Shown piece after piece: positions 24,001 to 27,000 of a DNA stretch of 64,000 nucleotides (its first letter is position 1; every line of letters begins with the position of its first letter). The position numbers are program-made. The stretch lies in the NCBI RefSeq assembly GCF_057098645.1, contig NZ_CM169472.1, one strand, 5' to 3'.

Positions 24001-27000
24001 GGTCAGTTCGCCGTTCTCCATTCCGGAAATGTTCTCCGCACGTCTCGGTATTGCCACGATGGCGATATGCCCAATTATGGTTTCTTTTAGCGTGGCAGCG
24101 ATCAATTCGCTAATGAAGCAAGTTGCGCTGCGAGCCGACTTTGATTTTCTGACTCAGGTTTACTCACGGTCCGGTCTTTATGAGGCGCTGAAAAGTCCAT
24201 CGCTGAAACAGACACAACATCTGACTGTCATGCTGCTTGATATCGACTATTTCAAAAGTATTAACGATAACTATGGACATGAATGTGGCGATAAAGTGTT
24301 AAGCGTGTTTGCCCGGCATATTCAGAAGATTGTCGGTGATAAGGGGTTGGTGGCGCGCATGGGCGGCGAAGAATTTGCTGTTGCAGTGCCGTCGGTGAAT
24401 CCTGTCGATGGTCTGCTAATGGCGGAAAAAATCCGTAAAGGCGTTGAACTGCAACCATTCACCTGGCAACAAAAAACGCTTTATCTCACGGTAAGTATTG
24501 GCGTCGGTAGTGGTCGCGCATCGTACCGAACGCTGACCGATGACTTTAATAAATTGATGGTCGAAGCCGATACGTGTCTGTATCGCTCGAAGAAAGATGG
24601 GCGCAACCGTACCAGCACTATGCGTTACGGTGAGGAAGTTGTCTGACATCTTTGTTCATTCAGAGCGATTTAAATGCAATGTGTTCTACCACTTTATGAT
24701 CCAGGAAAAGGCGTTTTTCCTCGATTAAACCATGATCCGCGCCACACTTTTCTCATAAAACTGCTCATTAATCATCAGGAGTTGATCAAAACAGGGGTTC
24801 GTCGTATTAAAGTTTGCTAACCTGTCGTACCAATTCAAACAGGTTGTATGACTAATCAGAAGGGAACCCATTGTGAAAACACTAAATCGTCGCGATTTTC
24901 CCGGTGCACAGTATCCAGAACGTATCATTCAGTTTGGTGAAGGTAACTTCCTGCGCGCCTTTGTTGACTGGCAAATCGATCTCCTGAATGAGCACACCGA
25001 TCTGAATTCTGGCGTGGTCGTTGTTCGTCCGATTGAAACTTCATTCCCGCCGTCACTGAGCACGCAGGATGGTCTGTACACCACCATTATCCGTGGCCTG
25101 AATGAGAAGGGGGAAGCGGTCAGCGACGCGCGTCTGATTCGCTCGGTTAATCGTGAAATCAGCATCTACAGTGAATACGATGAATTCCTGAAACTGGCGC
25201 ACAACCCGGAAATGCGCTTTGTTTTCTCTAACACCACCGAAGCGGGTATCAGCTACCATGCGGGCGATAAATTCGATGACGCGCCAGCGGTAAGTTATCC
25301 CGCAAAACTGACCCGTCTGCTATTCGAGCGTTTTAGCCATTTCAACGGTGCGCTGGATAAAGGTTGGATCATCATCCCGTGTGAGTTGATCGACTACAAT
25401 GGCGACGCGTTGCGTGAACTGGTGCTGCGCTATGCGCAAGAGTGGGCACTGCCAGAAGCATTTATTCAATGGCTGGATCAGGCTAACAGCTTCTGTTCTA
25501 CGCTGGTGGACCGTATCGTTACCGGTTATCCGCGTGATGAAGTAGCTAAACTGGAAGAAGAACTGGGTTATCACGATGGTTTCCTCGACACCGCTGAACA
25601 CTTTTACCTGTTTGTGATTCAGGGACCGAAATCCTTAGCGACCGAGCTGCGTCTGGACAAATATCCGCTCAACGTGCTGATTGTTGACGATATTAAACCG
25701 TATAAAGAACGCAAAGTGGCAATCCTCAACGGTGCACATACCGCGCTGGTGCCGGTGGCGTTCCAGGCAGGGCTGGATACCGTAGGTGAAGCGATGAACG
25801 ATGCTGAAATTTGCGCATTCGTTGAAAAAGCCATCTACGAAGAAATTATTCCGGTTCTGGATTTGCCTCGCGATGAACTGGAGTCTTTCGCCAGTGCAGT
25901 CACCGGGCGTTTCCGTAACCCGTACATCAAGCATCAGCTGCTGTCTATCGCGCTCAACGGTATGACCAAGTTCCGCACCCGCATCCTGCCGCAGCTACTG
26001 GCAGGGCAGAAGGCAAACGGCACACTTCCGGCGCGCCTTACTTTCGCATTAGCGGCATTGATTGCGTTCTATCGCGGTGAGCGTAACGGAGAAACATATC
26101 CGGTACAGGACGATGCACACTGGCTGGAACGTTATCAGCAACTCTGGAGCCAGCATCGTGACCGTGTTATCGGTACCCAGGAACTGGTTGCGATTGTGTT
26201 GGCAGAAAAAGACCACTGGGAGCAGGACCTGACGCAAGTGCCTGGTTTGGTCGAGCAGGTGGCTAATGACCTGGATGCGATTCTCGAAAAAGGGATGCGC
26301 GAAGCTGTACGCCCGTTGTGCTAATACTCTGAACCCGGTTTCGACCGGGTTTCTTATTTCACTATATTAGTTACAACATCCTACAAGCTTACAACATTAA
26401 CAGGTGCCACATGCAGCACCTGTTAATGTTGTAAGCTTGTAGGTAATTTGTAAGTCGTGTCTTGAGAATGTGATCGTAATCACGTTTAATAGGGCGACTT
26501 TTCCACGCCTGAAGATAACCATGATCGTTCGTCCACAACAACACTGGCTGCGCCGTATTTTTGTCTGGCATGGCTCAGTATTATCCAAGATATCCTCGCG
26601 CTTACTACTCAATTTTCTCTTTTCTATCGCTGTTATTTTCATGCTGCCCTGGTACACGCATCTGGGCATCAAATTCACCCTCGCACCGTTCAGCATTCTC
26701 GGTGTCGCCATCGCCATTTTTCTTGGTTTTCGTAATAATGCCGGTTACGCCCGTTACGTTGAAGCGCGAAAACTTTGGGGGCAGTTGATGATTGCCTCAC
26801 GGTCGTTACTGCGCGAGGTAAAAACGACATTGCCGGATTCGGCAAGTGTAAGGGAGTTTGCCCGGCTGCAAATCGCCTTCGCCCACTGTTTACGCATGAC
26901 ATTACGCAAACAGCCACAGGCGGAAGTGCTGGCTCATTATCTCAAGACTGAAGATCTTCAGCGTGTACTGGCTTCGAACTCTCCAGCTAACCGCATCTTG

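What the first reader, a model, noticed from the sequence alone, without database searches (positions are those of the whole stretch)
26380..26443. Perfect 28-bp inverted repeat in the uxaB-yneE intergenic region
Arms of 28 bp with zero mismatches around an 8-bp centre are far longer than a typical intrinsic terminator stem (a separate conventional terminator lies at 26332-26360) and are not followed by T-runs. The element could form a very stable hairpin or cruciform. It may be a protein-binding palindrome, a miniature repeat element, or a processing/stability element at the 3' end of uxaB or the 5' untranslated region of yneE.
Basis: seen in the sequence. Interest (0 to 1): 0.5.

Follow-up and report, generated by a model that had tools for sequence, protein, structure and literature searches.

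The report
Template-switch-perfected palindrome abutting TerC
The perfect 28-bp inverted repeat is real, but it is a lineage-specific (E. coli O145:H28) clean-up of an imperfect palindrome found in all E. coli, made by one replication template-switch mutation right beside TerC, the chromosome's most-used replication-fork stop site.

Summary
Arms 26380-26407 and 26416-26443 are 28/28 complementary around an 8-nt centre, and this is the longest inverted repeat in the window.

The left arm overlaps TerC (26364-26386, minus strand), the Tus-binding replication terminus site. The palindrome lies on TerC's non-permissive, fork-arresting side. dif lies 18 kb further on, at 44658-44685.

All E. coli carry a palindrome here, but it is imperfect (18-23 of 28 pairs). 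Only 26 of 5,426 complete genomes, all O145-type, have the perfect form. Compared with precursor-like alleles, the window differs by five substitutions within 11 bp (26384-26394). Each one changes the left arm to the complement of the right arm.

A horse isolate with a K-12 background carries the same conversion: six of its eight differences from MG1655 over 3,064 bp fall in that tract. This is the signature of a quasipalindrome template-switch mutation, and it has happened twice.

The converted tract ends where published work maps the arrested leading-strand 3' end at Tus-Ter. I therefore infer, without proof, that fork arrest at TerC promotes the switch.

I found no evidence that the palindrome has a function of its own. 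It is single-copy, varies at roughly a neutral rate, is absent outside Escherichia, and matches no repeat or RNA family.

The parts
26331..26360 (+). uxaB intrinsic terminator (stem 26331-26352 plus T-rich tail). It is context, not part of the palindrome.
   Evidence: terminator scan. Conserved across Enterobacteriaceae.
26364..26386 (-). TerC, the 23-bp Tus-binding replication terminus site. On the minus strand it reads 5'-TTGTAGGATGTTGTAACTAATAT-3'. Ter position n corresponds to window coordinate 26387-n. The C of the G-C(6) pair is the plus-strand C at 26381. The non-permissive face points to higher coordinates, towards the palindrome and dif.
   Evidence: The core GGATGTTGTAAC matches exactly at 26370-26381, the only exact match in the window. 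It is orthologous to MG1655 1,609,157-1,609,179, ATATAGGATGTTGTAACTAATAT, in the uxaB-yneE spacer. Ter consensus AGNATGTTGTAACTAA is from PMC5993296. The TerC analysis window 1609021..1609255 is from PMC10287960. 67 of 80 Enterobacteriaceae species representatives carry it in the same spacer.
26380..26407 (.). Left arm of the palindrome, the recipient of the conversion. Its outer 7 nt (26380-26386) are Ter positions 7 to 1.
26384..26394 (.). Converted tract. There are 5 substitutions relative to precursor-like alleles (26384 T>C, 26389 C>T, 26391 T>A, 26392 T>C, 26394 T>A). Each is a change to the complement of the right arm.
   Evidence: window versus XJ34 and NZ_OZ197100. The same tract is converted in strain SWYHX138 relative to K-12.
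26408..26415 (.). 8-nt centre (loop), CACATGCA.
26416..26443 (.). Right arm, the template (donor) of the conversion. It is the same as in relatives that have an unconverted left arm.
   Evidence: the right arm of XJ34 and NZ_OZ197100 is identical to the window's.
26463..26491 (+). Predicted yneE promoter (context): TTGAGA, a 17-bp spacer containing the palindrome GTGATCGTAATCAC, then TTTAAT. It lies 20 bp downstream of the right arm.
   Evidence: Read from the sequence. This block is conserved across genera in the alignment. It was not reported by the simple scanner and is unverified.
44658..44685 (+). dif chromosome-dimer resolution site (context). It shows that the palindrome side of TerC faces the inner termination zone.
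   Evidence: Exact 28/28 match to GGTGCGCATAATGTATATTATGTTAAAT. PMC8347550 reports terC and dif on opposite strands in MG1655, and the same holds here.

Best explanation
The 64-bp element is an imperfect palindrome (a quasipalindrome) that every E. coli carries in the uxaB-yneE spacer. [quoted passage not shown]

In the O145:H28 lineage one replication template switch made it perfect. A nascent minus strand had already copied the right arm and the inner left arm. It then folded back on itself and used its own right-arm copy as template for the outer left arm (26384-26394), before returning to the parental template within the shared CCTA at 26380-26383. Five mismatches were corrected in one event. 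The right arm, TerC positions 6-23 and the flanks were left untouched. The same event occurred independently in a K-12-like strain.

Shown here: the imperfect ancestral state; the clustered changes, all towards complementarity; the recurrence; and the identity and orientation of TerC.

Inferred (my estimate about 0.45): the switch is promoted by Tus-TerC fork arrest. A fork arriving from the dif side crosses the whole palindrome. Its leading strand, which is the minus strand required by the donor-to-recipient direction, stops at about 26381-26387, at the TerC-proximal end of the converted tract. The persistent 3' end then has time to snap back.

The palindrome itself probably has no selected function. 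Its perfection is a mutational by-product.
For: 1. Ancestral state. Arm complementarity is 28/28 in the window, 23/28 in XJ34, 21/28 in O157 Sakai, 20/28 in K-12, 19/28 in EcN and 18/28 in O169. Other Escherichia species keep only a short inner stem, and other genera have no palindrome.

2. Rarity. The exact perfect form is in 26 of 5,426 complete genomes, and every one that carries a serotype label is O145. None of 47 E. coli TerC loci from metagenomes has it.

3. Signature in the window. Against NZ_OZ197100 there are 0 differences in the 1,209 bp downstream of the tract. There are 5 substitutions within 11 bp, all to the complement of the right arm. The result against XJ34 is the same.

4. 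Recurrence. SWYHX138 differs from MG1655 at 8 positions in 3,064 bp. Six of these lie at 26384-26394 and all are to the complement of the right arm. The two inner mismatches are left uncorrected, and K-12-specific bases flank the tract at 26363 and 26418.

5. TerC identity and orientation.

6. Arrest geometry from the literature. The leading-strand template carries C(6) when a fork approaches the non-permissive face, and synthesis pauses at Ter positions 3-6 (PMC4499146). The E. coli replisome stops at the base just upstream of ter, or one base closer (bioRxiv 10.1101/2021.02.25.432933).

7. Precedent for the mechanism. Mutations at quasipalindromes 'universally perfect the palindromic sequence'. 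Protein roadblocks and blocks to the DnaB helicase stimulate template switching, preferentially on the leading strand (PMC6357072).

8. In vivo state of TerC. It is the most-used arrest site (PMC8707476). It shows a Tus-dependent single-stranded region of about 230 nt (59-fold enrichment), and it is the only Ter site that recruits RecA (PMC10287960).

9. No sign of selection on the arms. 27 of 64 columns are polymorphic, the changes are not compensatory, and the adjacent Ter core has no variable column.
Against: The link to Tus arrest rests on position and strand logic from only two events. With two events, the chance that both have the TerC-proximal arm as recipient is 0.25.

TerA and TerB have no adjacent palindrome. 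TerC orthologues in other genera show no general excess of inverted copies. Arrest alone therefore does not build palindromes.

GC skew in the window stays positive up to dif. This suggests that over evolutionary time the TerC-dif interval is mostly replicated from the permissive side.

The arrested 3' end would already have copied 26387-26394. The model therefore needs resection of about 8 nt or more, or a switch just before arrest, and neither is shown.

A very short recombination patch (under 54 bp) cannot be strictly excluded for SWYHX138.

A function for the perfect hairpin (effects on yneE, on Tus-TerC, or on uxaB read-through RNA) was not tested.
Confidence: 0.8

Rival explanations
1. 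The palindrome is a selected functional element: a symmetric operator for a dimeric regulator of yneE, or a DNA or RNA structure that modulates uxaB 3' end stability, yneE expression or Tus-TerC function. On this view the perfect O145 form is an adaptive improvement.
For: It sits 20 bp upstream of the predicted yneE -35 element. A short inner stem is kept across Escherichia species, with a double change in E. albertii (CAGGAG..CTCCTG versus CAGGTG..CACCTG). Part of the centre and right arm (CACATGCAGCACC) resembles Enterobacter sequence. The perfect allele is fixed in 26 O145 genomes.
Against: The arms are polymorphic in 42% of columns among 38 haplotypes. This compares with 6-12% in the flanking coding sequence and zero in the Ter core. 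The changes break pairs rather than compensate. The K-12 version folds no better than shuffled sequence as DNA (z = -0.9). There is no palindrome in Citrobacter, Enterobacter, Kluyvera and other genera, even though yneE and its promoter block are conserved. The perfect form occurs in 0.5% of genomes. The double change in E. albertii can itself be produced by a template switch.
Confidence: 0.1
2. The converted left arm spread by homologous recombination (a short gene-conversion patch between strains) rather than arising twice. Alternatively, the O145 allele was imported from an unsampled donor.
For: The converted tract is identical in O145 and SWYHX138. The uxaB region is mosaic among strains.
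Against: In SWYHX138 the tract is bounded by K-12-specific bases at 26363 and 26418. An imported patch would therefore be under 54 bp, inside an otherwise MG1655-identical 3 kb. The product of a template switch is fully determined by the right arm, so identical independent outcomes are expected. Recombination still requires a first event that created the tract.
Confidence: 0.05
3. It is a miniature mobile or repetitive element (REP/BIME, ERIC/IRU, a MITE or an IS remnant) inserted between uxaB and yneE.
For: It is palindromic and intergenic. In one strain a Tn3-family transposon sits exactly at its right edge.
Against: There is one locus per genome in 5,426 E. coli. The second 'place' in O145 records is most simply the palindrome aligning to itself on the other strand, though I did not inspect the second place's coordinates. 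There are no other copies in the window. Rfam gives only sub-threshold generic hairpin (miRNA) hits. Homologous imperfect sequence occupies the same position in every E. coli, with no empty site and no target duplication.
Confidence: 0.02
4. The template switch is real but unrelated to TerC. The quasipalindrome was corrected by ordinary replication slippage, as at any quasipalindrome, and its position next to TerC is coincidental.
For: Quasipalindrome mutations occur at many loci without Ter sites (PMC6357072 and PMC7202029). GC skew suggests the interval is mostly replicated from the permissive side. There are only two events.
Against: In both events the recipient is the TerC-proximal arm, and the tract ends at the mapped leading-strand stop. 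The required nascent strand is the leading strand of the arrested fork. No multi-nucleotide right-arm conversion occurs in 5,426 genomes. Protein roadblocks are known stimulators of the switch. The K-12 quasipalindrome is thermodynamically weak yet was still converted.
Confidence: 0.4

Closest known systems
TerC / Tus-Ter replication fork trap of E. coli
   Same: Window 26364-26386 is the TerC orthologue. It has the same intergenic spacer and the same core, and dif lies on its non-permissive side.
   Different: The palindrome is not part of the Ter site as defined; only 7 nt overlap, at the variable positions 1-7. The conversion changed Ter position 3 (A>G). Relative to K-12 TerC, position 1 also differs. 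TerA and TerB have no such neighbour.
Quasipalindrome-associated template-switch mutations (E. coli thyA hotspot; lacZ QP5/QP6 reporters, Lovett laboratory)
   Same: An imperfect inverted repeat is perfected in one step, with one arm templating the other. The outcome is deterministic and recurs. There is a leading-strand bias and stimulation by fork blocks (PMC6357072 and PMC7202029).
   Different: This is a natural polymorphism fixed in a pathogen lineage rather than a laboratory reporter. The arms are longer (28 bp versus 18 bp). The candidate fork block is a physiological, site-specific one (Tus-TerC) rather than a drug-induced DNA-protein crosslink.
Template-switch mutations that create or maintain hairpins in evolution (Loytynoja & Goldman 2017, PMC5453318; Monttinen & Loytynoja, PMC8794818)
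   Same: A cluster of nearby substitutions is explained by a reverse-complement copy of adjacent sequence. This produces perfect stems and apparent compensatory changes.
   Different: Those surveys concern eukaryotic genomes and RNA genes. Here the case is bacterial, lies next to a replication terminator, and shows no evidence that the hairpin is used.
REP/BIME, ERIC/IRU and other enterobacterial intergenic repeats
   Same: Palindromic and intergenic.
   Different: It is single-copy and matches no family. The comparison with the REP and ERIC consensus sequences was made from memory only.

Membership tests
Ter site (TerC) | Match to the conserved Ter core (G6, positions 8-18/19; consensus AGNATGTTGTAACTAA) | tested here: met
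   GGATGTTGTAAC matches exactly at 26370-26381 on the minus strand. The 23-mer differs from MG1655 TerC only at the variable positions 1 and 3. Consensus from PMC5993296; core definition from PMC8347550.
Ter site (TerC) | Orthologous position: the uxaB-yneE spacer, MG1655 1,609,157-1,609,179 | tested here: met
   The TerC analysis window 1609021..1609255 is given in PMC10287960.
Ter site (TerC) | Non-permissive face directed towards dif and the inner termination zone | tested here: met
   dif lies at 44658-44685 on the plus strand and TerC on the minus strand, with position 1 at the higher coordinate. This is the same relative arrangement as reported for MG1655.
Ter site (TerC) | Tus binding and polar fork arrest | not testable with these tools
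   Known for K-12 TerC from the literature. Not measured for the O145 allele, which has Ter position 3 A>G.
Quasipalindrome template-switch mutation | A pre-existing imperfect inverted repeat at the same site in relatives | tested here: met
   18-23 of 28 pairs in other E. coli.
Quasipalindrome template-switch mutation | A cluster of changes confined to one arm, each to the complement of the other arm, with flanks unchanged | tested here: met
   5 of 5 changes in O145 versus XJ34 and NZ_OZ197100, with 0 other differences in the 1,209 bp downstream. 6 of 6 changes in SWYHX138 versus MG1655, with 2 other differences in 3,064 bp.
Quasipalindrome template-switch mutation | Dependence on replication, on 3' exonucleases or on fork blocks; direct observation of the event | not testable with these tools
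   Requires genetics; see next steps.
REP/BIME/ERIC/MITE-type repeat | Multiple dispersed copies per genome | tested here: not met
   One locus per genome (median 1 place; 2 in perfect-palindrome genomes, which I take to be self-complementary alignment) in 5,426 genomes. No other copy in the window.
Rfam RNA families | Score at or above a family's gathering threshold | tested here: not met
   Only sub-threshold miRNA-precursor hits (at most 31 bits against thresholds of 65-110 bits), which reflect a generic long hairpin.
Intrinsic (Rho-independent) terminator | A short G+C-rich stem followed by a T-run | tested here: not met
   The scan reports only the uxaB terminator at 26331-26352. The palindrome is A+T-rich and has no T-run after it.
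Symmetric transcription-factor operator | Sequence conservation of both half-sites among strains and species that share the regulated gene | tested here: not met
   42% of columns are polymorphic among 38 E. coli haplotypes. The palindrome is absent in other genera that keep yneE and its promoter block.

The most novel reading that the evidence does not exclude
Tus-TerC fork arrest is itself mutagenic. It drives recurrent leading-strand template switching in the abutting quasipalindrome, so the most-used terminus site of E. coli carries a natural, directional hotspot that generates palindromes. The resulting perfect 28-bp palindrome in O145:H28 may in turn alter events at the terminus, such as hairpin formation on the single-stranded DNA seen at TerC, SbcCD- or RecA-dependent processing, or fork fusion.
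Probability: 0.4. Interest if true: 0.65.

Novelty: new member of a known kind. Interest (0 to 1): 0.5.

Why it matters
TerC and quasipalindrome template switching are both well known. I found no description of a quasipalindrome abutting TerC, or of its recurrent correction in natural strains (literature searches).

The locus offers a ready-made natural assay. The direction of the product (which arm is rewritten) and the tract boundaries report which nascent strand switched and where its 3' end was. All of this lies a few bases from a physiological, orientation-specific protein roadblock that can be removed (delta-tus) or inverted. That makes directly testable the question of what happens to the leading-strand end of a fork held at Tus-Ter.

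It also warns annotators that a strikingly perfect palindrome can be a neutral mutational product rather than a regulatory element. For O145:H28 it gives a clean lineage marker.

Tried and rejected
- **Rfam scan of 25800-27000 at permissive thresholds:** only generic hairpin (miRNA) hits below threshold. Rejected as an RNA family member.

- **Copy-number search in 5,426 E. coli genomes and in the window:** single locus. Rejected as a repeat or mobile element.

- **Test for a deep-conserved hairpin upstream of yneE in 80 Enterobacteriaceae species representatives:** only the uxaB terminator, the Ter core and the yneE promoter block are conserved. The long palindrome is confined to Escherichia.

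- **Matching the conserved block TTAGTTACAACATAC to transcription-factor consensus sequences from memory (OmpR, Zur, FadR, NsrR, sigma-54 and others):** abandoned once the block was recognised as the reverse complement of the Ter core.

- **Test for a general rule that Ter sites acquire inverted copies on the non-permissive side.** TerA and TerB of MG1655 have none. Across 67 TerC orthologues only 2 exceed shuffles at p<=0.05, which is about what chance gives. Non-permissive flanks score higher than permissive flanks in 48 cases against 6, but base composition confounds this comparison. Not supported. I therefore do not claim that the 9-mer ATGTTGTAA in the right arm is a meaningful pseudo-Ter; it also lacks G6 and C17-A19.

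- **Search for the opposite conversion, with the right arm rewritten to match the left arm:** no full conversion was found. The 19 apparent hits (E. coli 536 and others) carry only a single G>A at 26439.

- **Hypermutation at the arrest point:** sites 26385 and 26386 (Ter positions 2 and 1) are triallelic and the most polymorphic. The overall density of variable sites in the palindrome is similar to what synonymous sites would give, so this is suggestive only.

- **Literature on the yneE/uxaB spacer:** nothing relevant.
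Full report
**Observation**

The inverted repeat is exactly as described. The arms are 26380-26407 and 26416-26443, 28 nt each and 100% complementary, around the 8-nt centre CACATGCA. With up to three mismatches the arm matches nothing else in the 64-kb window, and none is expected by chance. It is the longest inverted repeat in the window. It folds far better than shuffled sequence: z = -10.2 as RNA and z = -11.7 as DNA.

The window is E. coli O145:H28-like. 26 complete genomes are 100% identical over the element. uxaB is 24873-26324 and yneE is 26521-27435. The separate uxaB terminator is at 26331-26352 plus its T tail. A published survey found only perfect inverted repeats with arms shorter than 20 bp in MG1655 (PMC5941160), so a perfect 28-bp arm is unusual for the species.

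**The same site in other strains**

The 371-bp region is present in 5,414 of 5,426 complete E. coli genomes at 92-100% identity. The palindrome, however, is imperfect everywhere else:

| Strain | Paired positions of 28 |
|---|---|
| Window (O145) | 28 |
| SWYHX138 | 26 |
| XJ34 | 23 |
| O157 Sakai | 21 |
| K-12 | 20 |
| EcN | 19 |
| O169 | 18 |

Only 26 genomes have the converted left arm exactly, and every one that carries a serotype label is O145. Two more, both isolates of horse strain SWYHX138, have the converted tract as well; their one mismatch to that query lies upstream of the arm, at 26363. None of 47 E. coli loci recovered from metagenomes has it.

The right arm of the window is identical to that of XJ34 and NZ_OZ197100. 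These are the closest non-O145 alleles, and their left arm is unconverted. Against NZ_OZ197100 there is no difference in the 1,209 bp downstream of the tract. In the left arm there are the five substitutions at 26384, 26389, 26391, 26392 and 26394, each a change to the complement of the right arm, plus one further difference at 26382 that is private to NZ_OZ197100 and is not a conversion. XJ34 shows the five-substitution result without that extra site.

**A second, independent event**

SWYHX138 has K-12-type flanks and a K-12-type right arm. Over 3,064 bp it differs from MG1655 at eight positions. Six of these fall at window 26384-26394, and all six are changes to the complement of the right arm. 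The two inner mismatches (26400/26423 and 26405/26418) were not corrected, so the tract is confined to the outer arm. K-12-specific bases at 26363 and 26418 bound any possible imported patch to under 54 bp.

Clustered changes that are directed towards complementarity, confined to one arm and recurrent are the defining signature of a quasipalindrome template-switch mutation. In the published work such mutations 'universally perfect the palindromic sequence' (PMC6357072; see also PMC7202029, PMC8794818 and PMC5453318).

I aligned the uxaB-yneE spacer from species representatives across Enterobacteriaceae. This shows three conserved blocks:
- the uxaB terminator;
- TTAGTTACAACATAC;
- a promoter-like block just upstream of yneE.

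The second block is the reverse complement of the Ter core, whose consensus is AGNATGTTGTAACTAA (PMC5993296). In MG1655 the spacer holds ATATAGGATGTTGTAACTAATAT at 1,609,157-1,609,179. This lies inside the TerC interval used by PMC10287960. My recollection that these are the TerC coordinates agrees with that.

In the window TerC is 26364-26386 on the minus strand, and Ter position n maps to coordinate 26387-n. The left arm therefore overlaps Ter positions 7-1, and the C of the G-C(6) pair is the plus-strand C at 26381. dif is an exact match at 44658-44685. The palindrome thus lies on the non-permissive side of TerC, facing the inner termination zone, as in MG1655.

The conversion changed only Ter position 3 (A>G), which lies in the variable outer part (positions 1-5). 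The core is untouched.

**Mechanism**

*Shown.* The right arm is the donor and the left arm is the recipient. In the standard intramolecular model this requires a nascent minus strand that made the right-arm copy first, then the loop and inner left arm, then snapped back and copied its own right-arm segment.

*Established from the literature.*
- A fork moving from dif towards TerC uses the plus strand, which carries C(6), as its leading-strand template (PMC4499146). Its nascent leading strand is therefore the minus strand.
- Leading-strand synthesis stops at Ter positions 3-6 with the T7 replisome. With the E. coli replisome it stops at the base just outside ter, or one base closer. In window coordinates this is 26381-26387, the TerC-proximal end of the converted tract.
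- TerC is the most-used arrest site. In vivo it shows a Tus-dependent single-stranded region of about 230 nt (59-fold enrichment), and it is the only Ter site that recruits RecA.
- Protein roadblocks and blocks to the DnaB helicase stimulate quasipalindrome template switching, preferentially on the leading strand, because a 3' end persists.

*Inferred.* Arrest at Tus-TerC gives the leading-strand 3' end time to unpair, to be trimmed by a few nucleotides, and to fold onto the nascent right-arm copy. It is then extended to the end of the arm and realigns at CCTA (26380-26383).

DNA-hairpin energies of the corresponding 97-nt nascent strand are:

| Allele | Free energy (kcal/mol) |
|---|---|
| K-12 | -10.7 (no better than shuffles) |
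| XJ34 | -19.9 |
| SWYHX138 | -29.1 |
| O145 | -35.4 |

I put the template switch itself at about 0.9 and the Tus link at about 0.45.

**Evidence that tempers the Tus link**
- There are only two events.
- TerA and TerB have no neighbouring palindrome.
- Across 67 TerC orthologues, inverted Ter-like copies on the non-permissive flank are no more frequent than in shuffled flanks.
- GC skew in the window is positive up to dif, which implies that this interval is mostly replicated from the permissive side over evolutionary time.
- No full right-arm conversion exists in 5,426 genomes. However, 19 strains, among them E. coli 536, have a single G>A at 26439 that also restores a pair.

**Function of the palindrome itself**

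Among 38 haplotypes, 27 of 64 palindrome columns vary. Five of these vary only because of the two conversions. For comparison, 12% of columns vary in the last 248 bp of uxaB, 6% in the first 266 bp of yneE, and none in the Ter core. The variants break pairs rather than compensate.

The element is single-copy, matches no Rfam family, is not a terminator and is absent outside Escherichia. I conclude that it is most likely a neutral sequence, repeatedly re-homogenised by template switching, and not an operator, a repeat element or an RNA processing site. Effects of the perfect form on yneE, on read-through RNA or on events at TerC remain untested.

**Verdict**

The element is a new natural example of a known mutational process, located at a known and important site (TerC). 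Interest is moderate, because the juxtaposition makes testable the question of whether Tus-Ter arrest provokes template switching.

Noticed in passing
window 44658-44685: An exact 28-bp dif site (GGTGCGCATAATGTATATTATGTTAAAT) on the plus strand, 18.3 kb from TerC. The window therefore spans the inner replication termination zone. Cumulative GC skew rises up to about 44 kb and then flattens.
   Followed up: partly
L007 1581-1811 and L008 3311-8728 (E. coli HCP6S3_I1), equivalent to window 26443/26444: A Tn3-family (TnAs1-like) transposon, carrying a methyl-accepting chemotaxis protein gene, a recombinase and a transposase, is inserted exactly at the right edge of the palindrome (...CTTGTAGG|GGGAACCGCAGAATTCGG...). 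It separates TerC and the palindrome from yneE.
   Followed up: partly
window 26462-26491: A promoter-like block upstream of yneE is conserved across genera: TTGAGA (TTGCAA in other genera), a 17-bp spacer and TTTAAT. The spacer holds a perfect 14-bp palindrome, GTGATCGTAATCAC (26471-26484). It is CRP-like in Escherichia and Enterobacter and FNR-like (TTGATnnnnATCAA) in some Citrobacter. No regulator is known to me.
   Followed up: no
window 26385-26386: The two most polymorphic sites of the region are both triallelic: 26385 has A15/G22/C1 and 26386 has T27/C6/A5 among 38 haplotypes. They are Ter positions 2 and 1, where the arrested leading strand is reported to stop. This may be a mutational hotspot or simply unconstrained sequence.
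   Followed up: partly
window 26326/26327: A 10-bp indel (ACACCGTTAC) lies two bases after the uxaB stop codon. It is present in about half of the haplotypes (the K-12 type) and absent in the window, O157 and EcN types. It is coupled to a C/T difference at 26327.
   Followed up: no
L216 and L217 (E. coli 536, Z0117EC0005), equivalent to window 26439: 19 genomes, among them E. coli 536 and BH100, carry G>A at 26439 in the right arm. This restores pairing with T at 26384. It is a single-base change in the direction of perfecting the palindrome, with the right arm as recipient.
   Followed up: partly
L128, L143, L169 (metagenome contigs), equivalent to window 26410-26424: One allele has four linked changes in and next to the loop (26410 C>T, 26415 A>C, 26416 G>A, 26424 T>A), giving GGTGCCATATGCCACACCTGTAAATG. 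This is another clustered multi-nucleotide change. I could not explain it by simple arm copying or by loop inversion.
   Followed up: no
L003 (O157:H7 Sakai), equivalent to window 26435-26436: In O157 the right arm has GC>TT (GTAATTTTGTAGG), which lowers arm complementarity. The new sequence resembles the direct repeat TAATTTGTAAG 10 bp downstream, so it may have been templated from that direct repeat.
   Followed up: no
L063 (Pluralibacter sp. MAG), about 51 nt from its TerC orthologue on the non-permissive side: An 11/11 inverted copy of the Ter core (GTATGTTGTAA) is present here. It is the only strongly significant case among 67 species (p = 0.005 against shuffles). Kluyvera species (L060, L062) have 10/12 inverted Ter-like copies 0-7 nt from Ter.
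   Followed up: partly
L011 (Escherichia albertii), equivalent to window 26401-26422: The inner stem reads CAGGAG...CTCCTG instead of the E. coli CAGGTG...CACCTG. This is a change on both sides that keeps the pair. It could reflect selection on the stem or an older template switch.
   Followed up: no
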